Shown: piece by piece, positions 7,255-40,436 of the stretch
Numbering within the stretch: position 1 is the first letter of the stretch
Layout: every line of letters begins with the position of its first letter
DNA from: Lingula anatina
Lineage: Eukaryota; Animalia; Brachiopoda
Assembly: GCA_051362555.1 (NCBI GenBank)
Contig: CM120648.1
Coordinates: 8,986,587-9,050,586 of the forward strand
Length of the DNA stretch: 64,000 nucleotides
Direction of reading: 5' to 3'
Notes under the pieces: generated by a model
Databases searched by the model: none
The model's input: the letters and a program-made list of their open reading frames with translations, nothing else
What the model was told of the DNA's origin: nothing
Made by a program: the position numbers and the translations under genes

Positions 7255-7532
7255 CTGTTAACTGTGACAATGTCAGTTTGTTATGATTCTATGCTACAGT
7301 TTGTGTAGATTTAATGAACACTTTTGTTTTCTAAAGACAGTTACATGTTGAGCTATTTGTGTTTATGGGATTGCAAAGTATTTTATGTTTTAATAACAGT
7401 AAGTTTTGATGTTCCTTAAAGGTGTTTAAGGTACGGTAATTCTTAATAATTTCCGAGCAAATATTTTTTATACGTAATGATAAGGTAAACAGTGTATATT
7501 GTGTAAATTGCTTTCACAATTTAGGGGAGCCA

Positions 7533-8139: not shown

Positions 8140-8264
8140 GGAGTTACCTGTCATTACCTGTCTTAGTGAGTGCGGCGGTGCGTAATTAACAAGTTTTATT
8201 GTTTACGAGCTCTATAGCGTATCATCTGGTCAACTACCAGGCATTTTAATTGCTTCAGCAAAAA
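8140..8264 (+). other. Probable non-coding 5' exon of gene A (paralogous to ~35135-35244)
   Basis: Conserved block CCTGTyATTACCTG..AACTAC..CAGCA followed by a GTAAGT donor at 8265 and at 35245. Matching TTTCCAG acceptors precede both signal-peptide exons. Confidence 0.5.
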
Positions 8265-9510
8265 GTAAGTTTGTCAACTGATGATGTGATCTAAACCACT
8301 CGAGGCGACTGTAGTTTCGTGGCATCTATTGTCACCGAAGTGAGTAAAGCTCCCTTCAATTGGGCGGCGTCCTCCCGTTTGAGAGCGAAAAAAAAAAAAA
8401 AAAAAAAAAATTACGCGCCGACAACTAGCCGATCATTGATCATTCATTCTGCAACCAAAGCGATGCTTGTGCCTATACTATTTACGACCACAGCGATGCC
8501 AGTTTCATAGGCGCAAAAAGACCGCAGAAAGGACGCCGTTCAGGTAAAAGGGATTTAACTTAAGGAAGTCATGGAAGAGCGTCACAGACAAAGCAAGATA
8601 AATCTTGGGGTCTTGGTTTTTATATCCTGTCGATATAAAAAAATTACATGTAGATGTACGTCAAAGTAAACTTGAAAAAGCTGACCTAGAACTAGGATCC
8701 AAAAAAAAACTTTATTTTGGATCCTAGCCTAGAAGTCGGTCTCCATCCGCCCCTGAATTGTAGTATTACCAAATGCGCGAAGTTTCTGTTCGATGTCTTT
8801 GAAAATTTCCGGTGTGTCACTGTTAGGTCCATTAATAGTCACAAGGTTAAAGCGCGTTTCTTGCACAGTAATATGTCTAGGATGACAAAATTTCCATCGG
8901 GGTCTAATAACTTATTGTGTATTCTGTAATTAGAGGAATTTCGGAGAAATATCACTACTACTGGGTACCTTGCTTTGTCAAGAGAATGAGCTCCACCCTA
9001 TTCATTTTTCCACGTAGCCAGCCTCTTTTTTTTTTTTTTTTTTTTTTTTTGCAGTTTGTATAACTATCTGTTAGCAGGGCTACATTAGTTTTTTTTTCTC
9101 TTCTTTCAAAAAATCTCTCCTTTTAACTCGCTCTGAACTCAACCACCTAAAGTTCACACATCCTATTTTAATACTCGCCATGATCACTAAATAGCAATAG
9201 GTAATAGATATTATACTGATCATAACACCACCAACTACTGTCTTTTGTATTTGAATCCAATAAGCTCTAGTACTAGTACATTCATGCACTCAAACACATA
9301 TACAACAACACTACACACAACAACATAAGGGTTACCGGGGTCACGTGAAGAAACCGTCGTCGTGAATAAACCGAATTTCCAGCCCACCTTCCACCTCAGG
9401 GAGACTCTTTTAATGAGAAGCAATTGGATACACATTATGGAATTTTCAGTGTGATTTTGAATTTCAACTTAGCCGTTTCCTTTTCCAGATACAAGGACAA
9501 TTGAGAAAGC

Positions 9511-12500
9511 ATGCTTGAGAGTTGGAATTTCTTCTGTCTTTTGGCTGTTATGCTAATACCTGCACCAAAACTGTGCCTGGGGACGTCTGCCATTCCCTCC
9601 GATGATTTGATTCAAGTTAATAATCAATATTACAATCAGGATGTGAAATGTGTGAATATTAAATGTGCACCTGGTACGTCATATTTTTTCTAATTTATTT
9701 TGTTTTATTGCATTTAATGTTCATTTTATCCAAAGTTGAAGAACACTATTTTTGGTGCTGATGCCATGATGACTTAAAAAGGAAATTCATGTTATTTATG
9801 ATTCTTAAACTTACATAAAGCATACTTCAATATATTGTCTTTAAACTTACAGGATTGATCAATTTACTTAATTTGCTAAAATACAAGTTCCAAAGTTAGT
9901 TGGACTGGATATTTTTGGCAAAAGGTTTGCTTTATTTCCTGTTTTATGCATATTTTAAAAGTTAAATGGTAAATATTTCCCAAAATGAAAGAATCATGGG
10001 AAAAGTAACTCTATATGCTGACAAAAAGTCATATTTAGAGATTTTGGATATGACTTTAGATTTGACATTTGACCTTTATTTCAAATTCAAATGGGCCAAA
10101 ATTTAGTAAAAATATAAATTCTTATGGAAAAATATTTATTTGCGCTGAATTGTTTTGACAGTCTGGAGAGAAGTTACACTTGGTGCCATCTTTCATTATC
10201 TTGAGCTGGGGTCAATTGGTGCATTTTCATGAGAGAAGTAGTCATAAGATGCTAAAACTGAAAACTCTTGTCATTCTGGAACAGTAAAAATTTGATCCCT
10301 CTTGTTTGTTGTACTTTGTAGAGCTTTTTATGTGCAACACTGCAAGTGGTTTCATTTTTTGTTGTTGTTTATGTTTTTGTTAGTTTGTTTTCCATCTGGT
10401 TTAGGAGTTGCATTATTTCAAAAAGTAATGCTCATTGATGTTTTTTTTTGATGTTTTTTTTATGTCTGAAGTGAACATTTGGACCAGTGAACCTTCAGAC
10501 TATTGCTACGGCCCTGATATTTCAATTGCTTTTCCACATTTTGCAAATCAACTAACCCACATTTGTCTAGATGCAGCTAAAATGGATCCATCTATTGCTA
10601 TGATATAATTTTATTGGGCTTAATCTCTTAAAAATTAGGTATTGATTTTAGTGTTAAGCATCATCAAAATTGACAAAATAACCTATTTTTGCATCATTAT
10701 TTACTTTTATGTCTGTATGTATATATATATATATATATTACATCTTTGCTGCTTGTATTCTTTAATTTAATTATTGCTATAATTATTATTTTGTTTTAAA
10801 TATAAATTTGTTTTTCTAGGTTATCAAGCAGAACCATGTGACCCAAGGAACAAATCTTCCGCCTTTTGTAAAGAGTGTCCGGATGAGAGTTTTCAGCAAT
10901 TTGAAAATGATTTGACGGTCCGCTGCTCTGATAAGTAAGTATATGCATATAGATGGGAATGCTCTCTTATCTCTTATTGTGCAATCATTTCAAAACTGAC
11001 AACTTCTGTTGAAACATTGGTCAACTTTATGATAAGCATATCTTTTGACTTGGCAAGCTTTCAAACATGCACTTTTTAAATGTACAGACACAGATGTAGA
11101 TGCACATAGCCATTTGTGTCTGTCCTCGACATCATCAATATTGCCATGCACTTTCACTGTAATACAAATAAAATGAAAACCATTTTACGTTCTATCTTTA
11201 AACTTTTGATAAAATGCAAGTCAAGTTGGCGGATCAGTCTGGGCTCCTTTCCTCAACTTAACATGGCAATTTGTTACTACGCCATAACTCAAAACTGTCC
11301 CAGTTTTCAATTTTCGACTGAGCGCTAATATTGATATCACTTTTACATTTGAGGCTGTTACATTCGACAAGTAAATTCTGTCACAATTGCCTTAATTTGC
11401 ACATGCATAATTGGCATTTTATAATGTCTGTCATGTACGTAATCAAATATGGCAGCAAGTTCTGGTTGCTAGTCAGAATAGCATATAACAAAGCATGAAA
11501 GCTTATAAAAGATTGAGTCAACCTCTAATGGGGAAAACCTACAGTAAATTTAAAAGTGAAGAATGCTATGTATATAGAATATTATTTCATTAACCCCCCC
11601 AAAAAAAAATATGATGAACATTTTATAAAGTCATGATTTCTCATTATTTATTAAAAAAATCAAAGTTCAACATTTTGTGCATTATTTGATATTTCTGATG
11701 AATAAAAATCTGTGTAGTGTATTGATAAAAATCATGTTTTAAAGTTTCATTTTCTGCACAAAATGAAAAAGCAAAAACAAAGCATTCGGTCACACCATGA
11801 CCTTCCTCTACTCTCTACCAGGGCGAGTGATAGATTTTTTACAGATATTCACAGATATGTCTCTAGCTAGATAGATGTTCATTTAAGCTCAACTCTGAGT
11901 TGAGTTTAAAATGAACATCTATCTAGCTAGAGAAATATCTGTGAATATCTGTAAAATATCTATCACTCGCCCTGGTAGAGGGTAACCTTCCTCAGAGTCT
12001 GTTATAAGACTGAACACTACTAACCAATGTATCAATCCTTATAAAATAACATATGCTTTTCACTTATTGAATTGTTTTTGACATTTTATTGATGTTAACT
12101 CTTCAAATACACTGTAAAAGTATTTGTAATTGTGATACTCTTGTTAATTAAAACAATCTCTTGGTTATTTATGAAATTACATTTTGTAACTGTGTTATGA
12201 CATCTTTACTTTATGCAGCACTTGAACTTTAGTAGCGTGACAGGCTGTAGTTGTACTTCTGAACACGCAAATATTGCATGGTGTTTGCTAAAGTTTTGAG
12301 TTAACAGTTAAAGGGATAATAACTCTTCGTATGAAATCTGTATTTCACCATAAAAACATTGTGAATGACTCATAAAAATATAACATATTCTGTTTTCCCA
12401 CAAAAACGGCTGTTATAGCTATTATTCTGATATCTGAGCTTGTCTTTAGACCACGTGACCTCCATTGATAGCTATACTCTGATAAAATCTCTTAAGAGAT

Positions 12501-13608
12501 TTTAACAAAAAACCAAACTTTTTAGAAAAAAACCAGGGACTAACTTTGAATGTAAAAATGGATTCATTAACCATTGGTAAGTATGGGAAAATTGTTGTTT
12601 ACTCCAGGAAAATTATTTTTTTGGCCGAAACGAAGAGTTATTATCACTTTAAGTGCTATCAGCATCACAAATAACGATCCATCATTATGTTTGTGTGTGG
12701 TCGCAATTTGCAATGTTTTTTTGCACCATTATACAAAAGGAATAAAAAAGGTTTTAATTTTTGTCTTCAAAATTGCAGAACTGATTAATATTCATTAAAG
12801 CAAGGCCAATTTTGAAAATCAGCCTGATCGGACCACATTTTTCCAAATGTAATGCTCTTTTTATGTTCAGATACTGTAAGTGTCTGGATATAGTCTAGCT
12901 GATTGGTTCGTCTGTCAGTGTTGTTGCTGTCCCCATCGCTTCGCCTTCACTGTCACTGTCCCATAATTGCCAAACAATGGCTTTTTTTTTGTTTGTTAAA
13001 GAGGCAGGTTGCTTTCAAAAGTTGGCACAATCGGTTTACATTTAAAGTTATTGAAATTGATGTTAAGTGTAATGTAACATTGTTCAAAAATTGATAGAAA
13101 ATGTTTTGTGTGAGTTGCCACTGCAATACTCTAAAATGAAAATTGTATTATTTATTATTTTGTAACTGACAAGAATGGTTCACATACTGGTGCAGCTTAA
13201 ATTGGCAAACCAGCTTTTTTTTTTTTTTTTTTTTCTTGTTGTCTGTGCATTTGACAGCTTTGCTGTCTTGCTGTATGCAAACATAAGCTCCAGGTTGATA
13301 TTTACAATTATGATTCCATGTTTATTATAGTTTAAAGCCACATTTTTAGTAGTGGGTCATGACACTGAATATTATATTAAATAATATATATTATAACATT
13401 AAATATTATATTTTGATGTAATAATTATGTTCATCATTTTGAAGGCAGAAGTGTAGAGACCAGCCAGAGTCTGCGCGCCGTTGCACGGTGTATAAAAGCT
13501 ATGGTTCCACTACAGAGGACGCCAAGTGTGGATGTCTGGACGGCTGTGAATGGCGGAAAAATCTAAACGCTTGTATACCACTTTCTGGGCATACTGCAGA
13601 TGACAAAG
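9511..13608 (+). CDS. Gene A 5' module: signal peptide + TNFR-type cysteine-rich domains (3 exons), paralogous to gene B exons 1-3
   Basis: MLESWNFFCLLAVML...KCVNIKCAPG / YQAEPCDPRNKSSAFCKECPDESFQ..RCSDK / QKCRDQPESARRC..GSTTEDAKCGCLDGC. Same exon phases as gene B and an identical 115-nt exon 2 length. Confidence 0.85.
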
Positions 13609-14192
13609 GTTTGTGTTGTCCCTTGATCTCCTCTCTCTCTCTCTTTCTTGTTTTACCTTAACTTTTCTAAGATCAATACAATTACATCATGTGGATGCAT
13701 GCATATAGTGTGAATATTGTTATTCAGTTTTTATGAGGAAAGGAATGGAGGGGGATATATTTTTATGGGCTCAGCTTTTTTCACTGACTTTAAATGTATA
13801 TACATAATAATATTTATTTATTTGCTATAATCACCACCCAAGTGTTGAAGTTTTACAATGTATCATGTATAAAATCATAAGGTATTTAAAGGTAACTAAA
13901 AATTATAAGGTTAAAGACCAAAGCTAAAAACAAGACTTATAAGTGTGGGGCAGTATTTTACATAAAAAACTGTGCATTATAAAGGATGATTTAAGATGCT
14001 CTGTTTTCACTCTTGGTATTAAAAATTTGTTGCTGACCCTGAGATTTCTTGGATTCTTTTCTTAAAGCAGATGGTGTATTAACTTATTAAAATTCTTGAT
14101 TTTTGTAAAATAGTTCTTAAAAAAAAACATCACTTCTCTCCCTTAGAGAGGTAAGATTACTAGCCTGTAGGGCATCCTTGTAAGTTTAAAAT

Positions 14193-14258
<66 letters not shown>

Positions 14259-17200
14259 AAGCCATACCGTTCATATCAACATATAATCCAAAAAATCCGG
14301 AAGTACACAATGTCATAACTGGAAACTTACCTTTGGTAAAACAAGATGACAAAATGAATGAGATACTAACCGAAATGCAGATTATAAAGAGTAAGAGACA
14401 AAGTCCATCACTAAAGCAAATTTTAACAAAAGCAAAATTTGAAAACAATTCCAGGACAAATGTGGAAACCTCAACAATACAAGTACAGAAATGTGAGGTA
14501 CCCAGGTGTGGCACCTGTCCACTAATTAAAGAGGGGAGCCATATAACATTTAAAAATGGACTCACATTTAGAATTAAACACCCATTCACCTGCACTAGCT
14601 CAAATTTGATTTATGCATTAACTTGCAGTGGATGCGGTGAGAACTATATAGGACAAACTGGAGACACTCTCTGACATAGAATGACCGTTCACAGACAACA
14701 AATAAGACAACCTAAATATCAGTGCACGTCTGTGAGTGGGCACATTAGGGATTGCTCTATGAACAAAAACAAGGACTTTACGGTATTCCCATTTTATAAA
14801 TTCACTAGGGAAACAACCCAAACAGAAAGGAAAATGAAAGAAAATCTATTCATTAATAAGTATAAACCTACATTGAATAGATAAAAGCATTGGTAAAAGT
14901 AACAATTAAACACCCATTGTTAAAGACGTCACATTTTAGCCTTTATGACATCACCTAGTAACATATATATATATATGTAACATCTTAAGGACACTTATAA
15001 GGACACATTCCCCTACATGTTTAACGATTATGACGAGTTTTTTTTTGGTGATGATAAGTTCAGCTACCATGAAATTCCACTTAATTAGGTATGGGCATAT
15101 CAGATAACATACTTGCAAATATTCCACATGGCAAGATTTACAGACTCTGAGAAATTTTTCCCATGACACTCTTTGTCCCGCTGACAGCATATCTCTCAAA
15201 ACAAATTGACTGCAAACTGAACCTTTAAGTAGCATAACATTTTTTCATATCATATGTACCTATTATTTATACAAGTATTTTCTCCCCAAAACACTGCAAG
15301 AAAAAAATGTTATCTCACTACATTGTTGGAAAATCTGCTTTTTTCTCTTAGCCAACATCTTCACTCCTGTTCACCTCCAGCTAAATTTTGATATTTATTT
15401 TCTTCGTTTTACTTTAAGATTAAAATTCTGTATTTTCAGATAAACTTATTTAAAAACACTTCCTTCATTTTTTAAGGTTCAATGAGGTCTTTGTCCCCTT
15501 TATGTAGCGATCCATGTTAGAACTCATCGTTATCATTGCAATAATCATAATTATCATTTCAGCTTATCCCATGGCCAACAAAGACCCAGTTCTAATGTGC
15601 AATACTGCACCAGAACCTTCTTCAGGAGCACCTTTTGTCTTCTTAAAGGGAGAAAAGATGACTTTGAACTGTGATTGTTCTGAAAAGTAAGTGCATATAA
15701 CTTTAAATTGAATTGCCACTCAAAATCTTGCTTTCCGAGTTACATATATTAAGCAATGAATATGGATTTGTTTATTGTGGAAAAATACCTCAACTTGCCT
15801 CGAGACAATTTAATTTGCCAGTTGCAATCAAAATATTATGAACACCACTGTAGTGGTTCGTCAAAACCTAATGTGCACATTACCAAAGTACTTAGACCCC
15901 ATTCCCAGAGAATAGATCGATCCAACTGCCTGGGGGTTCACGCTAAAAAGCTGTCAGCCAAGCCGGCATGAAAGTTAATTACCCCCTCACAGCTTGTAGT
16001 AGGCGGGACAGACATTTAAGCTGGATTATCTGACAGTAATTTAATGAGATTCCCCACAGGGATAGAACGATCTAAAATATATGGGAATGTGCCCTTATAT
16101 TCCATATTTTATGTAAATAAAGATTAGGGAATACCTTTTGCGTTCCGCATCATGGGCCTTATTTTTCGAGCGTGATTCTGCATGAAACATGATTCAGGAA
16201 TTCTTGGGATTGGTGATTGACCTGTTTGTTTCCACAAGATCCATGGATGAGGTTTTAAAGCCAAAACTATGCTTGTGTGTTCAACCTGTCAACTATATTC
16301 TAGCAAACACAGCTAATGGTTTTATAGAAAATGTTTTGCTTTGTTCCTAAATACTTAAAAATATATAAAAAGACATGTTTGTCAGACAGTCCACCCTTGT
16401 CATGTCCGACATAGATATCTTTTGAAGACATATGACGTAATGTGTTGTAGGGCAAATAGCTCTTAAGTACTGGTAATGTGGCGGCCTCTTTACATAGCGC
16501 CGAAGTAAAGAATTCAATTAACTATGCAATTAAAAGTAATTAGAGTTGATGTACATTGCACAATAGTGCAGTTTTCAATTCAATAATTAATTAGTATGTA
16601 AGCGATGAGAACTGAGACCTTAGGGACAAGAGAGAGAGGAGACAGGAGAAGGAAAGGAGACTGGGAGCGACAGAGTACTGAGACATAGATTAGAGCTAGG
16701 AGTTGGAGACTTCACGTAGAATATGTACAGTAGCTACCGCGCGTCAACTAATAAATTGTTTAACTGGTCATTATGTGGACTTGGGTTTTCTTTGCTTGAC
16801 CTTACGTAAATCTGACACGAACCGTGGGTTGCGTTATCCACTAAGTTAGACCAAAACGTATTGTCCTATTTCGAGCACACCCTTGAATTAAGCATATAAA
16901 ATTATATAAGTTTAGGACATGTATTCATTCCATATGTATGAAAAGGTTCATTACACCCTGTCCAAATCTTTACCTATTCGGACTGAACTTTCGCCTATCC
17001 CAGACTGTCAGACATGCACTAATATGGAGTCCACAGTCATAACTGTGCTTCCAGTTCATTTTGTGTCAAAGCAGACACAATTATACTAGATTGATCCAAC
17101 TTGAACTGTGCAGGAGATTCTCCCTATAGCTAAGTGATCACTGTAATCAGTTTAAATGTCTGACAGACCTAGAGTTGTACGAGACAGGGTAATTTAGCTG

Positions 17201-18288
17201 AGTGCACATGAAAGTTAATGGGGTCATGTCGATACTACCTCACACCGTTACTCCCCCGCACCGATCGATATATTCCCTTGCACCATTACTCCCTCGTACC
17301 GATAATCCCCCTTAGTAATTTTTTGTATTATGCGCATCAATACCGATATTGCACACCGATAGATCCCCGCACTGGTACATCCCGGCACCGATACTCCCCC
17401 TCAGTATGTCTGTAATTGTGGGGGAGTATCCGTGTGGGGTAGTATTGGTGCGGGGATGTACCGGTGTGGGGGAGTATCAGTGCAGGGGATGTATAGGTAT
17501 ATATGTAACCAATTCAAGTTAATCACCCCTAGCTACTCAAGGAGGTGTGTCACACAAATTAACTGATTACACTAAATACGATTTACGGAGAATCCCAGGC
17601 AGTGCTGGAGTGTTCCAGCTTGTACAAAATGTTTGAATCTCACATGGTCTAAAAGTTTTGACAACCCCAATCATTGATATTGCATTCTTAAACCAGGACC
17701 AGTTGGCCAAAAAGTTTTTTGCACCTGAGGTGGTTAAAGGGATAATAACTCTAAGTATGAGATTTATATTTCACAATGAACATTAACATTGTTTTACCAC
17801 AAAAACGACAGTTATAGCTATTATTCTGATATCGGAGCTGGTCTTCAGACCACGTGACCTCCATTGACGACTATATACTCTGTTATAATCTCTTAAGAGA
17901 TTTTAACAAAAAAAAAACAAACTTTTTAGAAAAAAAAAAAAAAACAGGGACTAACTTTGAATGTAAATTTAAAATGGATTCATTAACCATTGGTAAGTAT
18001 GGGTAATTGTTGTTTACTCCAGGAAAATTCATTTTTTGGCCAAAATGAAGAGTTATTATCCCTTAAATTCAAATGTCTATTTATTTTCAGACCTGACCCC
18101 ACCATTGGCTGGTACAAATTGGCCGCCAATGGCACAGAAACGAACCCAGATGGCATTGCAGACAAGATCCCAAGCCTGTTCATTCCAAATGTGACCTTTG
18201 ATCATGAAGGGACCTATCGCTGCACTTTGTCCAATGGTTCTCGGAGCGAAGAAATTCAAGTTGTTGTGGAAGGTGAGCCAGTTTAATT

Positions 18289-18367
<79 letters not shown>

Positions 18368-20287
18368 TAGCATTGCCAAACAGTATCACTGACTTATTGA
18401 TTTCATCTTGTCTTGCTTAGGTGCCCCCGACTGGACAAAACCTGGGAGACCTAAGGACACCAATGTTACACTTACAGCTGGTGATGATTTTACCTTTGAA
18501 TGTGATGCTGAGGGAATTCCAACTCCTGACAAACCCAAGTTTTATTCCAATGGTCTGGAACTGGGTAAGCTAGGCTTCTGAACACTTTTCATATCATAGC
18601 AAACATTTCTGGGGTTTTGCAGCAGGGAGATATTAAAAAATATGAGCACTGCATATCCTAATTGGGCACTTTTCATTATATAGTCCCCGACAGAATGTGC
18701 ACAAATTATTTTTTTTTTACTTAACGACTGTCTTCGTGGGTACAAAGAAAACAACTTTCAGTTTAGAATTACTAGATATAAATATGTAGTCAACATCCTT
18801 TACATCATTTTAATATAACTACCATACACACCCAAACCCCATTATTACTTAATGTGGCAACCACTCTTTCACTGTTCCCCCTACCCCAATATTGCAACTA
18901 TATAGTCATAAATGAATGACGACATTATATGTCAACACAAAGTTATGCTATCCAAAGACATTATTCAATAGTTTGTGGTAACTGACCAACCAGAGGCCTA
19001 CAGTGCTACAAGAGTCAATCATATACAGTAATATAATAAAAGAGTACTCTCTACCAGGGAGACAGACTGATTTTTCACAGATATTAACAGATGTGTCTCT
19101 AGATAAATAAACAGTCATTTGGCTCTGTGACTTTTCCCATTTTTCCCTATATAATCTGCCACCTTGGTAGAGGGTAATAAAAGAGAGTGTCATTGTTACA
19201 ATAAAAAGAATGTTTTTTTTTTTTACATGTTAGGGTTTAGAAGCTCTATTTGGCTTTGAAATTCAATAAATTTGTGTTAAATTTTAACCACCACCAGAAG
19301 CTAAATTAAAACTGAAAGAGTGCAATGCTCCTTCACAATAGATAGAAGCAATAGAATCATAGCCAAGTTAACTTAATGTTGGTTAAAACAAAATATTAAA
19401 TATTAACCTAAATATAAACCTAAGAGGTGCGACATCATCAAAGAACTTTGATAACATGACTTGATGTCAATCCCCACTGACACAAACATGTTTGGTCTTT
19501 TGGGAATAGTTTACATTTTTATCATCAATACTGTATACCAATACAATACTCTCTACCAGGGCAACAGTTTGATTTTCGAAAGATATTCACAGATATGTCT
19601 ATAGATAAAAAGGCGATCATTTTGGTCTGTTGATCTAGAGACATATATCTGTGGAATATCAATCTGTCGCCCTGGTAGAGGGTACCAATACAAGATACAT
19701 GTGTTATCATTTCACCATAACCCAGTGTATAAGGGACTGTTCACATGCAAAATCTATTTTCTAAAAATCTATTTTCTATTCGCGGTATCTTGTGATCACG
19801 GTCTGTGCCCTGAATAACCTGCGGCGTAATTACTGGCAGCGCGAGCCAGTTACTTCCAAAGCTGTAATTAATTCTCGGCAGCGCTCGGAGTGATCACAAG
19901 ATACCGCGAATAGAAAATAGATTTTTAGAAAATAGATTTTTCATGTGAACGGAGTCTAAGTCTATTTTTCATGTGATAGATCTCAGTGAGCCCAGGATTG
20001 TGTATGATGAGCAGGAGCCGACCAAGTTTACCCTGAAGAACGTCAGCAAAGATGATATACAGGCATTTCAGTGTAACGTCAGCAACAAACATGGCTACCT
20101 CTTGGCCAACATTAACCTGAATGTTTTACGTGAGTTGAAATGCCCTCCTTTCCTACTCAAGTTTCATCTTATCTTGTTAAACTGCCCTCTATAGTACAAA
20201 AGACGGAATCAAGATTAGTAATCTTGGTGATCCTGTACACAGCTTTATTGTTAATCATGCTGCATGAATATGAACACATGCATGTTC

Positions 20288-20327
<40 letters not shown>

Positions 20328-23300
20328 TACAATCACTGTTATTCTGTTTTCTTGATCACAAGATTCAGATATAGAGTATCACATTCATTTTGATATTTGT
20401 TGTAAGTAGCTAAATTACTAGTTACTTTTGGTGTCCTGTTATCTTTCCATTTGTTTTATGGTATTATTTATTTTACTAATTATTCATTTGATTGTGTATT
20501 TCTTTCTTTCTTTTTTAATTTCTTTTTTCTTTCTTTATTTATTGTATTATCAGGAAGGACTCAGTTGCTTGTAGATCCTGAACAAAAAATTGTCTTTGAA
20601 GATGACAATAAGCCAACTAGTGTTAGGTTTAATTGCTCTGCCAGGGGAGACCCAAGCACCCCACTGAACTTCTCCTGGTTGTACTGGTACAGGTAAGCAG
20701 CAAATCAGGGCCCCGTATCTCGAAAGCATCGCGTATTGCGAATTGCTATATCAAATAGAATCTACAATGCATTATAAATATGGGACGAGTATGGGCGAGT
20801 TATGGAATCGAGACGCTTGCGCACATGCGCAACATAGCGAACCTTTCAAGATACGGAGCCCAGAACATCGTGGTTCTATAGGAGCCCGCTCTTGAAATTT
20901 TGATTTGCGTCATTTGTGTGGTGAATGGTTTTTATGTACAGACACAGATGTGTCTGTACATATTGCCATCACCTGCGTCTGTCGTCGATGCCGGTGCCGA
21001 TGCCGATGCCGTCGCCGTGCACTTTCCTTGTAAACACGATAAGTGGAGGACAGTTTTACTTTTTGGCTTTATATTTACAGAGCTGATGAATATTTATAAA
21101 ATGCAGGTCAAGTTCGAAAATCAGCATGATCGGGCCATTATTGTAGAAGTTATGCTGTTTTTTCACTTTTCAGCACATATGCAACCCTGTAAACACATTT
21201 TAAGAAAAACCGTTAGGCCTGTTGTCATGAGACTCACAGGAGTAATCAATCTTACTAAAATGCAGGTCAAGTTTGAAAATAGGCATGATCGGGCCACTAT
21301 TTTAGTAGCTATGCTGTTTTTTCATTTTTCAGCATATATGCAACACTGTAAACACAATATAAGAAAAACAGATCGGCCAATTCTCATTAAACTTACAGGA
21401 AAGGTCAATCTTACTAAAACGCAGGTTGAGTTCGAAAATCAGCATAATCAGGGCATTATTTCAGAAGTTATGCTGTTTTTTCACATTTCCTCAGATTCAA
21501 CTCTTAGGCATGTAAACAGTCTCATTATTGAACTAATAAGATACGTAAAAGTGTTTGTTTGACATTTCCTGCATCTTTACAACATTGTTAGTTGATTGTG
21601 TAAAAAAGATGGTAAACTTGTTATTGTATATTGTGTAATAAAGTGTCAAAAATGGAAATAAACTCATATCATTGCAGTTTGTCAGATTCAATCATTCACA
21701 ATGTTCAGAATCTCAGAATGGAGGAAATTGGACATTTGACACTATTCTATTGATATTATTCCCATCTCAGCAATTTTTTTAGTTGATCATATAAAAATTG
21801 CAGTAAACTGTTTATTTTGTTTTATGTTAAAAAAAGTGTTAAAAATGGAAATAAACCCATGTCAGAACAGTGCTGTCTTGTTTCACATTTCCTCAGATTC
21901 AATTCTTAGGCATGTAAACAGTCTCATTATTTAACTAATAAGACATGTAAAAGTGTTTGGTTGACATTTCCTGCATCTTTACAACAGTATTAGTTGATTA
22001 TGTAAAAATGATGGTAAACTTGTTATCGTGTATTGTGTAATAAAGTTTCAAAAATGGAAATAAACTCATATCATTGCAGTTTGTCAGATTCAATCATTCA
22101 CTATGTTCAGAATCTCAGAATGGAGGAAATTGGACATTTAACACTGTTGCATTGATATTTTTCCCATCTCATCAATTTTCTTAGTTGGGCGTATAAAAAT
22201 GGCAGTAACCTGTTAATTTTGTTTTATGTTAAAAAAAATTGTTAAAAATGGAAAAAAAAAACATTTCAGAATAGTGCTGTCTTGTTTACCTTTTGGCATT
22301 TTCAAGTTGTGACTTTGAAGTTCCATGGGCCTGAAGACCTTTGCTAGTCACATTTTCTGAATATCCATGATACTAATATTTTATTATTAAAAATTGATGG
22401 TCATTATGCTGTTAAACATTATGTAATATTGCATCAAAATTTGAAAAAAAACTATTTTGGGCACTGCTCCCATGACCATTTAAGAAAAACCATGTCACTT
22501 ACTGTTCTCAAACTTTCAGGAAAGAAACATGGGACTAAAATACAGCTTCAGTAGGCAATGCAGAATGTTTGGTAATTCTTACTGCCAGTTAAACAGTTTT
22601 TTTTTTAATTTATTTTTTCACATATTGGCATTTTCAAGGTGTGATTTTGAAGTTCCACGGGCTTGAAGACCCATGCTAGTCACATTTTCTAAAAATCCAT
22701 GATACATATATTTTATTATTAAAAATTGACGGTCATTATGCTGTTAACCATTATGTAATATTGCATCAGAATAGAAGAAAACACAATTTTGGGTGCTGCT
22801 GCCATGATGACCATTATGGGAAAACCATGTTACTTATGACTTTCAAAAAAGAAATACAGGACTAAAATGCAGCCTGAGTTGGAAAAGCAGTCTAATTGGC
22901 TTCTTTTTCTGGAAGTTATACATTTTCAAAGTGTGAACTTGAACTCCCATGGGCCTGAAGCCTTATGCTTGTTACACATTTTACTTACATTGGTATTACC
23001 TGTTGAGCATAATTAAAATTTGATGTTGAATTTGCAGTTTAACATAATGTACTTTTGCATCGGAATTGACAGTAGCCTATTTTGTGCATAGTAATTTCCT
23101 GCTATTTGTCTGTACATTTGACAGCTTTGCTGCCTTGTTTAAAGCTGTAGGTCTGGGATGGCATATGCCTGTAATTGAATAAATTAAACTATAGGAAGCT
23201 ACTAATTAATTACTGAATTACAATATAGCACTTTTTTTAGGATTTTAAACATGTGCCTCTATATATCAACTTACATGTATTTTCCTTTTAATTTTGAGAT

Positions 23301-26300
23301 GGCCCATGCCTGTATAATTAAACAAACAATAACTCATCTTCCATCATATGACATCCAAAAGTACATGTGTGAGTCTCTATCAGCAGGTGGCCTATGTATT
23401 TCAAAATCCTGAAGTGAGACATATATTTAACTAGAAAAGCACTCCAAGAGTGCAGACCTCCTCCAAGGTAGTGGTTTTTTATTATTGTTGATTATTGATT
23501 GATTATTGATCCGGATCACCACCAAAAACTAATCATCTCTTCCTTCGCCCACTTCTGACAGTTCCTGAAAATTTCATCAAAATCGGTCCATGCATAACTT
23601 TTTGAGTTATGTTGATGACAGACAGACAAACAAACAAACAAACAGGGGTGAAAACATAAGGGGAGGTAATTAGTGGTCTAGTGCGTCGATGTTTAGTTCA
23701 GTTCTGTGACATATGTAAATAAGTTACTGTACACTTAATAATACTAATGCCATATCGATGTTACATATGTGAGTACCGGTATATGTAAATCACGAACTGT
23801 ATGCTAAATGTTACTTACGCTTCTTCTAGCCCCCCAGGCACTGAGAAATGGATGCCTCTCTCCTCAGAGGGCCCGTACACCTTCATCAAGGACAATGAGC
23901 ATGCGGTGGACTTGAACATAAGTCTGGAGAAGGGGCGAGTCCATGACCAGTACAAATGTGTGGTGGATAACGGATATGTGCCAGTGGAGGTGTTGGCCTC
24001 CTTGAGACAAAGGGACACAGGTAAGAAGACAGGAGATTTGATTTGAATTTCTTTTTGATTTTTAATGTTCAACATTGTCAGTATTTTTATAGTTGCATGT
24101 ACTAGTATAGCAAATTTAAATTGAATATCCATTTAAGAAATCAACTGAATTTTATACCAAAAAAATTGCATATTTTACAGACAACTATTCACTTAAATAT
24201 TTTGATGATATTATTGTGTTTTTAATGAGATTTTTTATTTACTTAGTCAGTTAGATTTACTATGACCTTGAATTTGACCTTTGACCTACTTTTCACCATA
24301 ATCTGAACTTTGCAGAGATTTGCACATAGTTACTGTTGAGCATGGATGGCCGGGAGGTCTTATATTGGCAATGTTGCTGTGACCTTGAATTTGGTCTCTG
24401 ACTTACTTTTTGCCTTGAACTTAACATTGCAAAATGTCCAACCCTTATTTCTCCAAAACTGGCAGAGATGCACCCATAGTTGCTGCTGAACCTCAATAGC
24501 AAGTCATATATATATATATATATGATGTGACCTTGAATTTGAACTTGATTTACTTTTTCCCCACCATTAAGAAAAAAATTCTACAAAAAATTGTTTGTGG
24601 CTATCTTTAAAAAATACAGACATAAGCTTTAGGATTATGATGGATCAAGGAGCAAAAACGCATGTCACCCAGAATCTGCAGACATATTTGGGGAGAACAC
24701 ATTTTTTATGTATCTGATAAAATGCCATGAATATTTGGATGCACTTGCACATAGTTGTTATGAATTTTACTATTAGTTCAGTTCATAACCAAGGTTTGTT
24801 CTTTACTTTTAGGAACTAAAAAAACAGATGCTTCAGAGAAAGGAGGTCTCTCACCTGGTGCTATTATTGTCATAGTGATTGCCAGCATGACAGTTGTGTT
24901 CCTGATTTTTCTAGACATTCTTTGCTGCTTCAAATACAATCGTGGTGTGCTCATGTGCTTGTGCACTCACCTGCGTGGCAAGGAAATGCCCTGCGGTCCA
25001 GCTAACTGTAAAATAGCAGATGTGGAGAATGGAACTGGGTAGGTGATCCATATTGATATGCTCGTGCTTTCATCTTCTGATCCACTTCTCCACCTTCACC
25101 TCTGATCTTTCTTCCAGCCTCTTCTTGAATTGTAAGCACTATAGTCTCTCTGATAGTAGCTTTCTGTAAGGACTACAACATGCTCCCAAAGGACTCTCTG
25201 GATCAAAGAAAAATATCTTATCCATGTGGCTTTGTGACAAAGATGCCAAATAATGTTTCAGTTACCTTTGTTGAGCTGAGCTGAATTTCTTATAAGAAGT
25301 GGATTTGGGGTATGGCGCTGCTCCTGACTTAGGATTGGCTATTTTTTTGCACTGATGAGCATTTTTTTTTCATTAAATCTAAAAAATCATTTGTTTGGTG
25401 GTGGTAGAGGTTAACAAATGTTAACAAATGTTAATTCTGTTTGTAGATTGCCAGTAGTATCATCTTGTTTGAATTGTTACAGTAAGTTCGCTGTTCTTTC
25501 ATGTGTTGTCTTAGCATGTGCCCAGTCAAGCTGTGGATTAACAATTAACTGCTTTGGTTGAGAAATCTCCACTTGCTTGTCCTAACACAATAGTCAACCC
25601 AAAAAAATGTAACCAGCTATTGCAACTACTACAACAGACACCCAGAAATATACCGAGTTGTCACAATTTCCACAATGGATTACTAAAATGTGTCTATCTG
25701 TCACATTGTACCAACTTATGCCCAGATAAGACCAGTTGAAGTTCTTAAGAAGAAAGGGTGACAAATTAATCATGGCATTTGCTATATATATATAATTGTG
25801 ATATTTGTTTTGAGTTTGCAACCAGTATTTTATGAATTTATTTGAAAAGATTTTTTATCCAAACAGGGATAAAAAGGCTTATTCCCAAAAGTTAAAATCA
25901 AGCTGCCAAACAGAAAACTGTCTGAAATTGATGTCTTTCTATTCAAACTTCTTTAAACTGGCTCTGTCATCATAAGTGTAGTGTCAGTAAAATCGTCTTT
26001 GTTCATGTACACTCCCAAATAAATGAGTTATTCCTGACATTGTGTTGCTTTATTTGTTATCGCAGAGAATGTTAGCAAGCATTGCCTGAGGATGATAAGA
26101 TTCGGCCAATAGATGGAGCTATACTGAGGCAGCAAAGGAGTAAAATGCCCAGCATGAAAGTGTATTTGTTATATGTGATGTGTCCAGTGTCATTATCCTG
26201 TTATTTTTGCAAGCCTGTTTCAGCTAGCCTGTGCCCAGACCTTTAAACCTGTAGCTACAGTCAAAAAGGCCACCAAGGTCTGAGAATCTACAGGCATTAA

Positions 26301-27734
26301 AATAAGTCCGAACATTGGCTGCTAACAGAACAAAGCTGAAATGTGAAAAAAAAATGTTGGAAAACTGTCATAGCTCTTTATATGTTATGAAGTCTTCTTA
26401 GGGCCTAGCTAAACCTGTTGTTTAGTTCATCTAAATAAGCCAGAATTGCCATTGTGTTACATAAACTGTTAAACAAATGGCTTATTTTTCAAACCAACAA
26501 GTTATTTCATAGACAACTACAAATTTATTTGTGAGAAATTGGAAATATGGTGGCTTAAAGTTAAGACCAAACTTTAGTCCCAAATTCCATATTAACCGAA
26601 CCCCCTGCTCAATGACCTTGCCATTGTGGTGATTGGCATACTGTCCCAGGGATGACTCTAAACATTTTCCCATTGTCTGCTGGGATCAATAGCAAGGTAC
26701 AAATTAAAGTTAGGCTATTACAGCTTTGATGTAGTATACCTCAAAGGGCGGAGTTTTCATCAGCCTTGTTATGAAAAATGCATGTTTATTATTTTCATTA
26801 TTGTTGTTGTTGTGACTATTATTATGATTATTATTAAAATTTAAAAAAAAAACATCTAAATGTATTTTTTTATCTTCTTTTCAACTGGTTTGGTAAAATT
26901 AACTCCTTATGTTTTTATTTATTTTTCACTCACTTCAAAGGTGTTTTTAAAGCCAGTTAGTTGGGTACTTTTGAAATTAATATTTAGACGATGAATGCAT
27001 CCTCAATCATGTATGTTAATTCAAATAAGAGATGGGGGTAATTCAACCAGGAACATTTGGTTCTTTACTGTTCTCGCCACAAACATTTCAATAATGAGTT
27101 GACTGACAATTGCATGCTTAATATGTTACTAGTACTGGTTTTTATTGTCTTGCAGTGACGAGAAACAAAACCTTAAAGGTGACACAGAAACAGCTGATTG
27201 TGAAGATAAGAAGGTAATTACTTTTAATCCTTAAATTTTTATATTATTTTATTTGCATTTGTCAGCAGTAGAATACACTGAGACTAGAGAAAGAAAGTCA
27301 GAAGAAGATATATCATGCAAATCATAAAATGTTCATTGGTGTTCTCGAGATGTTTTTAAATTTCAGTTTTATGTAAATTTGCTCAAATTTGAAAAAAAAA
27401 GTTTTTTAAATTCTTTACTCAAGATGCATGTCCTGAGCATTTGGTAAACCTTTTTTTGCACTGTATTTTTAAATGGAGAACATTTTTGATAAATTCTTTA
27501 TATTTACTGTGTCAGTGGAGTTCTTTTTCAAAATGCCTGTCAAAATGAAAAGAAATTACTTATTTTTATGCTACTTCTGCTCATATGGTTGCATTGCTTT
27601 TGGAAATCCATATTTGTCGACATGTCATTGGACTGTGTTTGTTACACTTTTATTGGACTTTTATCATTTGTTTTTTTATATAGCCTGATGCAGGTCCAGA
27701 GGAGATAGAACTTGAGGAGAAGACCCCCCAATAA
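9511..27734 (+). CDS. Gene A: putative chimeric type-I membrane protein, SP - TNFR cysteine-rich domains - 3x Ig (L1/neuroglian-like) - NCAM-like TM/cytoplasmic tail (568 aa model)
   Basis: GT-AG exons 9511-9673, 10820-10934, 13445-13608, 15563-15686, 18091-18272, 18421-18564, 19980-20129, 20554-20692, 23830-24020, 24813-25038, 27156-27213, 27684-27734. All phases are compatible: 1707 nt, no internal stop. The exon 3-4 join is inferred. Confidence 0.65.
11809..11984. mobile_element. Fold-back MITE (TA-flanked, CTCTACCAGGG termini); related copies 19045-19176, 19547-19684, degenerate ~49259-49384
   Basis: Near-perfect hairpin TACTCTCTACCAGGGCGA...TCGCCCTGGTAGAGGGTA, repeated in the window. 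Confidence 0.8.
12308..12652. mobile_element. TTAA-flanked non-autonomous DNA transposon (Kolobok-like termini AGGGATAATAACTC)
   Basis: TIR TTAAAGGGATAATAACTC / GAGTTATTATCmCTTTAA. Copies at 17734-18066 and 31048-31639. Confidence 0.75.
14255..14884 (+). mobile_element. 5'-truncated Penelope-like retroelement fragment (GIY-YIG endonuclease), with in-frame stop
   Basis: IPFISTYNP...CEVPRCGTC...FTCTSSNLIYALTCSGCGENYIGQTG..L*HRMTVH..E..FINKYKPTLN. TGA at 14672-14674. Flanked by (TA)n tracts. Confidence 0.88.
15563..27734 (+). CDS. Gene A 3' module: Ig-superfamily cell-adhesion-like protein (3 Ig domains, TM, short acidic tail)
   Basis: Ig motifs LNCDCSEKPDPTIGWYK..DHEGTYRC; FECDAEGIPTP..QCNVSNKHGYLLANINLNVL (L1/NrCAM Ig4-like); FNCSARGDPSTPLNFSW..YKCVVDNG. 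TM GLSPGAIIVIVIASMTVVFLIFLDILCCFKYNRGVLMCLC (NCAM-like). Confidence 0.88.
15892..16097. mobile_element. ~210-230 bp MITE family (TTA/TAA-flanked, PIF/Harbinger-like); copies ~31121-31338, 33831-34051, 41551-41781, 50269-50500
   Basis: Shared core GGGGGTTCACGCTAAA..GTAGGCGGG..GAGACTCCCC and imperfect TIRs CCCATTCCCA..GATCGATC. Confidence 0.8.
17734..18066. mobile_element. Second copy of TTAA-flanked non-autonomous element
   Basis: Same TIRs and internal sequence as 12308-12652. Ends ~25 nt before the exon 5 acceptor of gene A. Confidence 0.75.
19730..19959. mobile_element. TAA-flanked MITE with long TIRs; related copy ~28134-28402
   Basis: GTTCACATG-AAAATCTATTTTCTAAAAATC... / ...GATTTTTAGAAAATAGATTTTTCATGTGAAC inverted arms. 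Confidence 0.75.
20928..23143 (+). repeat. Helentron/HINE-like non-autonomous repeat with internal ~160-170 bp and ~400 bp tandem subunits; shorter relatives ~11075 and ~12857-13272
   Basis: T-run + TGTACAGACA..TGTCTGTACA 5' palindrome; 3' TGTCTGTACA + ACAGCTTTGCTG hairpin + T; repeated AAAATGCAGGTCAAGTTCGAAAAT units. Confidence 0.55.
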
Positions 27735-36913: not shown

Positions 36914-38188
36914 ATGTCAATGAGGTTGATGATCCTTCTTCTGGCTGTAATGGCTACACCAGAACTGGTCCTGGAGGCGTCTGCTGTTCCTGTCCCCGAG
37001 TTCGTTTGGGTTGAAAATCCAGATTACAACCAAAAAGTGTATTGCAGGAATATAATTTGTTACCCTGGTAAGTCATCATGTTTTTTTTTAAATTTATTTA
37101 CTCATAATGTTTTACTGTATTTTATTTTTATTTCTTTCAATGATTTATATCGATTTATTTAAGAACTTGGATGTAGTGTTTGGTCATTATACTGTGCTCG
37201 CTTAAAAATATTTCAGAGAAGTCGAGTAAATGCGATACCTTTTGCTTCAAACTCTATGATTACACTTGTTGGTATTATACAGCCCAAATTTGAAAATAAG
37301 CATGATCCTTGTATTCTTCATAGTATTTTAAATATAATAATAATAATAATAGTTATGATTATAATAATAATAATAATAATAGTTATTATTACTTAATTTG
37401 AATTTGTGTTTTTAGGACAGGAAGCAGTACCATGTAAGCCATGGGACAAATACTCATCCACTTGTAGAGACTGTAAGAATGGGACTTACCAGACATCAAC
37501 AAATGATTTGCTGAACAATTGCTCACCAAAGTAGGTTGATGTAAAGAACAGTAAAAACTTGAAAATTTCGTCACTTAAAAATTAATTAATATCTTGAAAT
37601 GCTTGACCATACTAGGTGACAAAAATGTCAGATTTATCAAGAGGTCCATTTTCAAGTTTGACAAAATTTCAGAAGTGAAAAATTTTATGACAGCAGAGAA
37701 TCGTCTTCTAGCAAAATTTTCAAGACAGACTAAATTTGCAAGTTTATACCATATGCAGGGATGGGAAAGCTCTGTCATCTCTCTTTCCCTGCTAGCATTT
37801 TGATATGAAAGGAATGTGTCACTTGATAAACTGATGACAATTTGGTGATCAGAATTACATAGACTGACTGATATGCATGAGTAATGTTTTGGCATACTTA
37901 AAAAAGAAAAGTTTATTTTTTAAACATTTTTTTAACATTTATAGTTTGATGTAATAATTGTATTCATTGTCTTGTAGGAGGATCTGCAGTGACCAGCCGG
38001 AGTCTGCGTACCACTGCACAGAGTATGAATCCTGGGGTTCCACTACAGAGGACGCCACGTGTCGATGTCTGGAAGGCTGCTATGAGGACAATAATGCCCG
38101 TGCTTGTCTACGAGCACCTGATGTCCCCACCACCAAGAAAGTGTGCCCCCTGGGGAGAATTGCAGATGGGAAAGGTATGTTTCCCTTC

Positions 38189-38245
<57 letters not shown>

Positions 38246-39885
38246 GTTTTACCTAAACTTTTAAAGGTCAGTGCATTATTATCTAATATAGAATTACTTT
38301 AATACAGATTACTGAATAAATAAGACGGGAAGCCATGATGAAGGGTCTGAAACAACGCGCCAGGCACTACTTTATTGTTCATATTCATGCGCATAACAAT
38401 GTGCGGCTTGACATATAGTACACAAATACATATAGCATAGTACATACAGTAGAGTAAACAGTTCTACTTAACTACATACTGTTACAATTACAGCATGCAT
38501 GTAGTGTAAATAATAGTTTCTTCACATTATTCAGATTTTATTGGGTAAGGGGGGTATCTTTAAGGGTTCATCTTTAATTGAATTTGATATTTTCTATTGT
38601 AAAACCTAAACTTTCTTATATACAAAATGCCTGAGCAGTACATGAACATTGGCATGAGAATTTTAATGACAATTTCCCTCCACAAGGTGACTGCTCAGAT
38701 TGTCAAGACGGCTGGTTTTCCAAGACAGGCCTCTCTGATGTCCCTTGTCAAGAGCACACCAAGTAAGTTTTGTCAGTCGATATGTAGTGGTTCCTTTGTG
38801 CTGCTTCAAAATTTGATGAAAGAATTACATGATTCAATTGCATTCCATTCCTAGTATTCACCCGGTATTACTTTGTTTGCATGCTTTGATATTTCATTTG
38901 GTTCAAAATTGGAAATATTTTGGTCAAGTGAGCTTGTATAAAACTGGTAGTATATGCACAGGATCTTAAAATTGACAACATTCAGTGTCACTGATGATTT
39001 TTTTAATGCCATTGAAAGTCTTATATATACCTATTAGAAATCCATCTTGAAATTCTGTTAATTCTATGTAACTGTTTTAACATTTCAGCTGTACGTCTTT
39101 GGGAAAATGTGTAATCCAGAGAGGCAACAGTACTGCAGATAATGAGTGTTCTGTCAAAACAGTATCTGGTAGGTCAATTAAGGCACTGGTGGAGGCTCTA
39201 CTCTGCTGGGTTGTGCATAAATGTTTGGTCACAGTTTCAGTAACTAGAAACAACGATTACATTTATTTTGTTAAGCATTTCTACTTTATTTGTTAATACT
39301 GTACAGTTGTTTAGCTTTATATGTTTTTTGTGAATGTGTGAATTAAAACTTTTTTTAAGTAATTTGTTTTAATATTTATCTGTAAAATTTTGATGATTTT
39401 GACATGGAAAAGTTTTTTATTTGTTTTGTTCTGTTTTACTTTGTTAGCATATACTGTAGATTTTTTCATGGTAAGATAATTCTTGTAAAATTGTTATTTC
39501 TACCATTTTTACTACTATAACACTCTGTTTTATTTTAGATCCCTCAAGCTGTGGACAGACCCCTGATGAGATCCCTGCTATACCAATTGCTAAGGATGAT
39601 GGGATATCAGTAGGAGGATGGGTCGGCATTGCCATTGCCATTGCAGTATTTACCTTTGCTGTACTTGGTGTTTGCTACTGTATGCACAAGTTTGAAAAGG
39701 GTTGCTTCAAACACTCTCCTCCAAGTTGCCTCACTTCTGAAGACATTGGCTCAAGGGAGGACTTTGTAGATGGAGACTATGCTTTTCAGAATGAAGGTAT
39801 GTGTTAAAGCTGTCAGAATGTTTTAGTTCTGCACGGCATGGGGGGGGGGGTGATGTTCACTTGCACTAACATGAGCCTTCTGTAC

Positions 39886-39926
<41 letters not shown>

Positions 39927-40403
39927 AGGCCCGTAGCCAGCAATTTCAAAGGGGGGGGTTCTTTTTCTAAAAAAGTGAACCTTTTACCATATAATCCCAA
40001 TGTACACTGTACCTAGGTCAAATTTTATCCAGAGTGGACCTTTTTCCACCAAAAAGGGGGGTTTGAACCCCCCGAACCCCCCCTGGCTACGGGCCTGGAA
40101 AGAGAGAGAGAGAGGCCTCTGTTGGGGCTGGCTGTTGGTTGAACTTGTATCTAGGACACACCTGACAGGAGTCATAAAATTTATAAGCACCTGGTAGGAA
40201 TTGATAGGCAACTGAAGTCGCCTATTATTAAAATTTTTTTTTTCATGAAATAAGAAAACTTTTTATTTCATGGTGTGCTGACACTTTGATTTTTGAATGT
40301 TGCTTTTTTCTTATCAAAGAAGTTTTCAATGCAACGTGAACAATTAATGTGCCATTATAGTATTAACAAAAATATGCTGGTTCAAATTATAATAATAATA
40401 ATA

Positions 40404-40436
<33 letters not shown>

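What the first reader, a model, noticed from the sequence alone, without database searches (positions are those of the whole stretch)
9511..27734. Candidate new receptor architecture: TNFR ectodomain grafted onto an Ig-CAM stalk with NCAM-type membrane anchor
Seen: three exons paralogous to exons 1-3 of the adjacent death receptor (gene B) are followed by nine Ig/TM/tail exons, and all 11 junctions are GT-AG and phase-compatible (1707 nt, no stop). No CRD-completing, TNFR-TM or death-domain exons are recognisable downstream of exon 3. Known: TNFRSF ectodomains normally lead straight to a TM and a TRAF-binding or death-domain tail; I know of no described TNFR-CRD + 3xIg + NCAM-tail protein. Inference: exon shuffling at a phase-1 intron produced a death-domain-less, possibly decoy or adhesion-coupled TNF-ligand receptor beside its parent gene, forming a paired-receptor system.
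Basis: partly seen in the sequence, partly recalled or inferred. Interest (0 to 1): 0.88.

Follow-up and report, generated by a model that had tools for sequence, protein, structure and literature searches.

The report
TNF-receptor head on adhesion-molecule body
A brachiopod gene joins a copy of the front of the neighbouring death receptor to the stalk and membrane anchor of a cell-adhesion-type protein, the joint is seen in RNA reads, and the product would likely catch TNF-type signals without triggering cell death.

Summary
In detail: 12 exons, 11 of 11 GT-AG introns, 1707 nt, 568 aa. The decisive joint 13608->15563 is in 31 stranded RNA reads in 1 of 4 runs. A second Lingula anatina haplotype in public databases carries the same fusion, labelled 'LRIG1'. 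Exons 1-3 are a partial duplicate of the adjacent death receptor: homology runs from a likely 5' non-coding exon to about 60-90 nt into intron 3; 12 of 12 cysteines are kept. They fold like RANK/OPG/DcR3 CRD1-CRD2 plus half of CRD3. The stalk is L1/neurofascin-type, not NCAM-type; only the membrane anchor resembles NCAM1. No death domain or TRAF motif. CRD plus Ig is not unprecedented: five coral proteins and one zebrafish protein have it. The three-part form was found only in Lingula. Unexplained: the two haplotypes differ at 55 of 430 residues in exons 3-10, at 0 of 128 in the other exons. Ligand binding and decoy function are untested. New variant of a known kind.

The parts
8145..8284 (+). 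Likely promoter / 5' non-coding exon copied from gene B (74% identical to 35139-35264; GTAAGT donor-like motif in both)
   Evidence: not covered by the read lay
9511..9673 (+). Coding exon 1: signal peptide and first part of CRD1
10820..10934 (+). Exon 2: end of CRD1, first half of CRD2
13445..13608 (+). Exon 3: rest of CRD2, first module of CRD3; 33 nt shorter than gene B exon 3; most variable exon between haplotypes (16 of 55 aa)
13609..15562 (+). Phase-1 fusion intron; first ~60-90 nt homologous to gene B intron 3, then homology ends
15563..18272 (+). Exons 4-5 (15563-15686, 18091-18272): Ig domain 1, closest to L1-family Ig3 (marginal)
18421..20129 (+). Exons 6-7 (18421-18564, 19980-20129): Ig domain 2, L1-family Ig4
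20554..24020 (+). Exons 8-9 (20554-20692, 23830-24020): Ig domain 3, divergent; first half aligns to neurofascin/contactin-2 Ig6
   Evidence: not assigned
24813..25038 (+). Exon 10: NCAM1-like transmembrane helix with Asp-Ile-x-Cys border and Cys-rich juxtamembrane stretch
27156..27734 (+). Exons 11-12 (27156-27213, 27684-27734): short acidic tail, stop
36914..42195 (+). Gene B, the likely parent: 9 coding exons, 409 aa, four OPG/DcR3-like CRDs, TM, death domain (LOC106178262)

Best explanation
This is one gene, spliced across its fusion joint in RNA reads, that likely arose when the front half of the neighbouring death receptor was duplicated into an adhesion-molecule gene, and its protein would likely act as a membrane-anchored decoy for a TNF-family ligand. 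Shown: the exon chain, the spliced joint, the homology of exons 1-3 and their flanks to gene B, the TNFR-type fold of the head, the L1-type Ig stalk, and the lack of a death domain. Inferred: the duplicated piece brought promoter, signal peptide, CRD1, CRD2 and the first module of CRD3 (the parts that contact ligand in RANK, OPG, DcR3 and DR5; own knowledge) and replaced the N-terminus of an IgCAM gene at a phase-1 intron. The head, lifted on three Ig domains, would bind ligand or pair with gene B through CRD1. The 75-residue tail cannot recruit FADD/TRADD by a death domain, so the net effect would be to dampen or redirect death-receptor signalling in the cells that express it. The NCAM-like Cys-rich anchor would be palmitoylated and steer it to membrane domains. 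That the gene is real: about 0.93. That it works as a decoy or dampener: about 0.45.
For: RNA joint 13608->15563 in 31 reads, about equal to exon-4 depth (12.4 over a 287-nt bin is about 29x over 124 nt), so nearly all exon-4 molecules come through exon 3. Same fusion in a second haplotype on the same 1,121,267-bp scaffold as gene B. A-B homology stops inside intron 3. 12 of 12 Cys kept versus 58 of 131 other residues, Fisher p=1.1e-4. The other haplotype lost two Cys together (C106Y, C127W), as if one disulfide. Gene B matches OPG (E=4.5e-9) and DcR3 over four CRDs. A profile of the shared head hits RANK CRD1-3 (E=0.011). The head model (pLDDT 74.7) returns TNFRSF ectodomains in all 39 rows shown by Foldseek and in the top 12 rows of VIA-align. 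No death-domain exon and no TRAF-type motif in the tail.
Against: No ligand was identified or tested. Pfam TNFR_c6 does not hit; only RANK_CRD_2 at E=0.067. Fold scores are modest (TM about 0.33, rmsd about 11; best VIA Z 5.2). CRD3 is cut after its first module and CRD4 is gone. A and B heads are only 49% identical with dN/dS 1.12 (0.73-1.78), so they may no longer share a ligand. Expression was seen in 1 of 4 runs; co-expression with gene B was not tested. A decoy needs no three-Ig stalk or NCAM-like anchor.
Confidence: 0.45

Rival explanations
1. A polymorphic cell-contact or recognition receptor: the CRD head is a fast-evolving binding tip on an adhesion-molecule body, reading a membrane-bound ligand (self/non-self or microbial) and signalling through the NCAM-like tail, independent of gene B.
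For: Haplotypes differ at 55 of 430 residues in exons 3-10 against 5 of 409 in gene B (p=7e-12) and 0 of 128 in A's other exons (p=3e-7); exon 3 (CRD2/3) is the peak, 16 of 55, and also holds 4 of gene B's 5 differences. Both versions keep an open frame. dN/dS near 1 with invariant Cys implies fast change at other sites. Stalk and anchor come from adhesion-molecule families.
Against: Only two versions were compared, one at protein level only, so dN/dS between them could not be computed. They may be tandem copies, a gene-conversion product or an assembly mosaic, not alleles. L1 adhesion depends on the Ig1-4 horseshoe (own knowledge), and Ig1-2 are absent.
Confidence: 0.3
2. A transcribed but functionless or drifting chimera: the duplication captured a promoter, the frame happened to fit (phase 1 to phase 1), and the gene evolves without constraint.
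For: dN/dS versus gene B 1.12; CRD3 truncated; Cys loss in one haplotype; no relative with this architecture outside Lingula among 6 hits; no reads at the joints in 3 of 4 runs.
Against: dS of 0.41 from gene B shows the copy is not recent, yet 1707 nt stay open with all splice sites, in two versions that differ by about 13% of residues over eight exons; all 12 head Cys and all Ig Cys pairs are kept in the window version; about 29x depth in X1.
Confidence: 0.17
3. Not one gene: read-through between a TNFR fragment and a separate Ig gene with its own start, or an assembly artefact.
For: The fusion joint has more reads (31) than the two upstream joints (12, 11), and RefSeq also lists a 481-aa form that starts in intron 2, so a second start upstream of exon 3 is possible. 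Joints 4-11 were not tested with reads here.
Against: Any such start still includes TNFR-derived exon 3. Most of intron 3 has almost no coverage in X1 (0-1.4x in the bins 13792-15513) and no joint into exon 4 from elsewhere is listed (35 weaker joints not shown). No convincing signal-peptide exon in intron 3: 3 candidates, best hydropathy 2.1 against 3.2 for exon 1. Two differing haplotypes share the arrangement.
Confidence: 0.05

Closest known systems
TNFRSF decoy receptors (OPG/TNFRSF11B, DcR3/TNFRSF6B; DcR1 and DcR2 from own knowledge)
   Same: CRD head of the OPG/DcR3/RANK type; no working death domain; sits beside a paralogous death receptor, as DcR1/DcR2 do beside DR4/DR5 (recalled).
   Different: Only about 2.5 CRDs; three Ig domains between head and membrane; NCAM-like anchor; ligand binding unknown.
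TNFRSF+Ig proteins listed in Quistad & Traylor-Knowles 2016, Table S1 (PMC4979521)
   Same: Five Acropora digitifera proteins have an N-terminal TNFRSF domain and a later Ig domain, with no death-domain row.
   Different: One Ig hit each, 180-520 residues behind the CRDs; the zebrafish protein has Ig before CRD. None appeared among the hits for this head, so these are likely independent origins. No L1- or NCAM-type assignment is given there.
L1-family CAMs (neurofascin, L1.1, contactin-2)
   Same: Ig1-Ig2 align to neurofascin Ig3-Ig4; Ig2 scores 39.6 bits on an L1 Ig4 profile, next best 27.9.
   Different: No Ig1-2, no FN3 repeats, no FIGEY tail (no such Pfam hit); different TM; 23-33% identity only.
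NCAM1 transmembrane/juxtamembrane segment
   Same: 14 of 32 (window) and 15 of 32 (P0002) residues identical to human NCAM1 with one gap, counted by eye from the row in PMC12219630 supplementary data 13, including the Asp-Ile-x-Cys border.
   Different: No 5-Ig + 2-FN3 ectodomain; no database hit to any NCAM was obtained for this exon.
Lingula anatina XP_013410057.1 ('LRIG1') and UPI00078A0453
   Same: The same gene in another haplotype or copy, with the same fusion.
   Different: Named for Ig similarity only; no LRR is present and the TNFR head is not annotated.

Membership tests
TNF receptor superfamily | Extracellular TNFR-type cysteine-rich domains | tested here: met
   12 of 12 Cys shared with gene B, which matches OPG/DcR3; RANK profile hit E=0.011; TNFRSF folds on top. 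Pfam TNFR_c6 itself does not hit.
TNF receptor superfamily | Type I topology: signal peptide and one TM helix | tested here: met
   Hydropathy of exon 1 and of residues 472-492 of P0002; simple hydropathy scan only.
TNF receptor superfamily | No non-CRD domains in the ectodomain (criterion in bioRxiv 10.1101/2021.12.26.474206) | tested here: not met
   Three Ig_3 stretches; criterion read.
TNF receptor superfamily | Binds a TNF-family ligand | not testable with these tools
   No Lingula TNF ligand sequence was in hand; no complex was predicted.
Death receptors / TRAF-binding TNFRs | Cytoplasmic death domain or TRAF-binding motif | tested here: not met
   No Death hit for P0001/P0002; no gene-B death-domain exon copy and no match to recalled TRAF motif patterns in the 75-aa tail.
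TNF decoy receptors | Competes for the ligand of a signalling receptor and blocks its output | not testable with these tools
   Needs binding and cell assays.
L1-family CAMs | L1-type Ig domains | tested here: met
   Ig4 clear; Ig3 marginal (23.7 vs 21.7 bits); third Ig unassigned by fish L1.1 profiles, Ig6-like in pairwise alignments.
L1-family CAMs | Six Ig + FN3 repeats + FIGEY/ankyrin-binding tail | tested here: not met
   Three Ig, no fn3 or Bravo_FIGEY hit.
NCAM/Fasciclin II family | NCAM-type TM and Cys-rich juxtamembrane segment | tested here: inconclusive
   14-15 of 32 identities by eye; in the stored part of that table only human and mouse NCAM1 had a segment starting with such a motif, a lax and incomplete check; no scored alignment.
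NCAM/Fasciclin II family | Five Ig + two FN3 ectodomain | tested here: not met
LRIG (RefSeq label) | Leucine-rich repeats before three Ig domains | tested here: not met
   No LRR family hit in P0001 or P0002.

The most novel reading that the evidence does not exclude
A three-parent receptor (RANK/OPG-type CRD head, L1-type Ig stalk, NCAM-type anchor) that turns TNF-ligand recognition into a cell-contact signal and is kept in deeply divergent alleles by balancing selection: a brachiopod self/non-self or immune-recognition locus built from a death receptor.
Probability: 0.2. Interest if true: 0.8.

Novelty: new variant of a known kind. Interest (0 to 1): 0.57.

Why it matters
It is a clear case of exon shuffling with the parent gene next door, the breakpoint intron still recognisable and the joint confirmed in RNA. 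It bears on a question posed in PMC4979521 (passage seen): what invertebrate TNFRs without death domains do. Gene A and gene B give a matched pair for testing this. It also shows that such hybrids hide in databases, because Pfam misses the head and the record is named LRIG1. The ten-fold excess of differences between haplotypes, peaking in the likely ligand-contact exon, could mark a recognition locus.

Tried and rejected
No whole genome is held, so copy number, the Ig donor gene and TNF ligands could not be searched. No RNA holder was listed by index; all 9 runs came by species label, and 4 of the 9 were laid. Single-exon Pfam scans gave no TNFR hit for A or B exons 1-3. Word-based search with window exon 3 found nothing. 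Search with the Ig+TM part among 990-2825 aa proteins gave 13 hits (11 fish L1.1-type, 1 sea cucumber, 1 coral), none above 33% identity: no close donor (weak evidence). Single-sequence fold of P0002 was unusable (pLDDT 38.9). Exon 10 had 0 PDB hits. Atlas hits for the head region were all under 0.9, leads only; for the C-terminal part they were generic Ig-TM proteins. The Ig6 identity of the third Ig was not confirmed by profiles. Of 6 hits for the head, 2 (P0017, P0019) are bacterial/archaeal repeat proteins and were dropped as chance. A possible extra exon at 26066 has no donor site and is absent from P0002. Ten paper searches listed no title or abstract start describing this protein; most listed papers were not read. 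The 2014 PNAS coral TNFR paper is not held, and a 2018 survey of Lingula immune genes (recalled, not seen) may mention it. Earlier findings: none. No complex prediction was run, for lack of a ligand.
Full report
Gene model. From the window sequence I built a 12-exon model between 9511 and 27734. It gives 1707 nt, 568 residues and one terminal stop; 11 of 11 introns are GT-AG; the exon 3/exon 4 joint is phase 1. The protein has a hydrophobic N-terminus, a Cys-rich head (exons 1-3), three Ig domains each split over two exons (exons 4-9; three Ig_3 stretches in the database version), one TM helix (exon 10) and a tail of about 75 residues. Gene B (36914-42195) has 9 coding exons and 409 residues, with a weak Pfam Death hit (E=6e-4 for its exon 8).

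The fusion is transcribed. Nine RNA runs were offered by species label; I laid four on window 9200-17800. Run X1 (about 6% read) has stranded GT..AG joints 9673->10820 (12 reads), 10934->13445 (11) and 13608->15563 (31 reads, 22 start places, up to 70 letters on the short side; printed as 13606/15561, cut +2). Exon-4 depth works out at about 29x, so nearly all exon-4 molecules come through exon 3. Bins within intron 3 from 13792 to 15513 have 0-1.4x in X1. Runs X4, X7 and X9 have 0 reads at these joints and 0 depth in the exon-4 bin; they also have 0-0.6x in the exon-1 bin, where the two known versions are identical in protein, so this looks like restricted expression and not only a missed allele.

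Organism and second haplotype. Exon 10 finds one protein, XP_013410057.1 of Lingula anatina, named 'LRIG1'. Its cluster holds a 565-aa member, P0002, that aligns to all 12 exons and has the same fusion. The 481-aa form begins with nine residues encoded at 11797 in intron 2, which ties the record to this locus. Gene B is LOC106178262 on a scaffold of the same length, 1,121,267 bp, and differs from the window's gene B at 5 of 409 residues. The arrangement is therefore present in two differing haplotypes or copies.

Origin. DNA homology between A and B covers 8145-8284 (74%, a likely non-coding first exon with a donor-like motif), exons 1-3 with their acceptor flanks, and the first 60-90 nt of intron 3, then stops. 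No copy of B exons 4-9 lies outside B. This is the pattern expected of a partial tandem duplication that broke in a phase-1 intron (inference). A and B heads share 70 of 143 residues, 12 of 12 Cys against 58 of 131 others (p=1.1e-4), with dS 0.41, dN 0.46 and ratio 1.12, bootstrap range 0.73-1.78: the disulfide frame is held, the rest is not.

The head is TNFR-type. Gene B aligns to OPG (E=4.5e-9) and DcR3 over four CRDs; by that alignment A keeps CRD1, CRD2 and the first module of CRD3, and a 33-nt deletion shortens exon 3. A profile of the shared head alone hits RANK at E=0.011. Its model (6 rows, pLDDT 74.7) returns TNFRSF ectodomains in all 39 Foldseek rows shown, with low TM-scores near 0.33, and in the top 12 VIA-align rows, best Z 5.2, rmsd 4.0, 59 aligned. 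Pfam TNFR_c6 does not hit, which likely explains the database name.

The body has two sources. The Ig stalk's best solved-structure match is neurofascin (E=3e-20), then contactin-2; Ig1-Ig2 align to neurofascin Ig3-Ig4 and the first half of the third Ig to Ig6. Profiles built from 10 of the fish L1.1 hits give Ig2 = L1 Ig4 (39.6 bits, next 27.9), Ig1 = Ig3 only marginally (23.7 vs 21.7) and no assignment for the third. The TM is unlike L1's and resembles human NCAM1: 14 of 32 identities by eye (15 in P0002) using the row in supplementary data 13 of PMC12219630 (supplement rows seen). No donor gene was found. Whether the L1-stalk/NCAM-anchor gene existed before the TNFR head arrived is not known.

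Unexplained divergence. Window versus P0002: 0 of 128 differences in exons 1, 2, 11 and 12; 55 of 430 plus small indels in exons 3-10; 16 of 55 in exon 3, including loss of two Cys together. Gene B has 4 of its 5 differences in exon 3. At the 16 sites, 6 window residues and 4 database residues match gene B and 6 match neither, so both versions changed. Old alleles under balancing selection, tandem copies, gene conversion or an assembly mosaic all remain possible.

Comparison with what is known. Table S1 of PMC4979521 (passages and supplement rows seen) lists five Acropora proteins with an N-terminal TNFRSF domain and a later Ig domain, one zebrafish Ig-Ig-TNFRSF protein, and large sponge, ctenophore and choanoflagellate proteins with an Ig hit. 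An Atlas cluster of 85 members carries TNFR_c6 (100%), C1-set (98%) and Ig_3 (93%), mostly chordate where known (score 0.79, a lead only). PMC11788884 (passages) reports TNFR_c6 shuffled onto PRY/SPRY in cyclostomes. So CRD shuffling and CRD+Ig are known themes. A full HMMER scan with the head found 6 proteins: 4 from Lingula, of which only this gene has Ig domains, and 2 chance hits; that scan is insensitive to distant CRDs. bioRxiv 10.1101/2021.12.26.474206 and PMC11463336 (passages) treat Lingula TNFR or apoptosis genes; the passages seen do not mention this protein, and the preprint's supplements are closed. PMC8195603 and PMC2114844 (passages) added nothing.

Verdict. The structure and its expression at the fusion joint are established. 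It works like a death-domain-less TNF receptor on an adhesion-molecule scaffold but is not a regular member of TNFRSF, L1, NCAM or LRIG. Decoy action (0.45) is the most likely mechanism; a polymorphic contact or recognition receptor (0.3) is the more interesting rival; a drifting chimera (0.17) is not excluded. New variant of a known kind, interest 0.57.

Noticed in passing
window 1702-7852: Pao/BEL LTR retrotransposon: a 1682-codon open frame (Peptidase_A17, DUF1759, DUF5641, integrase zinc finger) between LTRs identical over 320 nt, so a very recent insertion, about 300 nt upstream of gene A's likely promoter.
   Followed up: partly
window 14256-14890: Inside the fusion intron, a broken reading frame that resembles the GIY-YIG endonuclease end of a Penelope-like element (recalled resemblance; Pfam gave no hit). 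It may be related to the rearrangement or be a later insertion.
   Followed up: partly
window 40717-41007 (- strand): Inverted partial copy of gene B's TM exon (exon 6) inside gene B's intron 7; arms 39538-39628 / 40842-40932 are 95% complementary.
   Followed up: no
window 37978-38174: 4 of gene B's 5 differences from the database haplotype fall in exon 3 (p=0.003), the same exon that varies most in gene A.
   Followed up: partly
window 11797-11984: The start of the 481-aa RefSeq form is read from intron 2, at the edge of a 76-nt inverted repeat; likely a modelling artefact or a minor start.
   Followed up: no
window 47145-47609: Exon with a VWA domain (E=1e-29), with a candidate signal-peptide exon near 46406-46469; a separate gene downstream of gene B.
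   Followed up: no
window 50970-58511 (- strand): Two tandem, about 86-90% alike copies of a gene with a long N-terminal region and a rhodopsin-type GPCR part (7tm_1 hit for 51872-53338, none for the second copy).
   Followed up: no
P0018, P0020/P0021: Two further Lingula TNFR-like paralogs (LOC106159281 with a death domain; LOC106178293) share the head's Cys pattern.
   Followed up: partly
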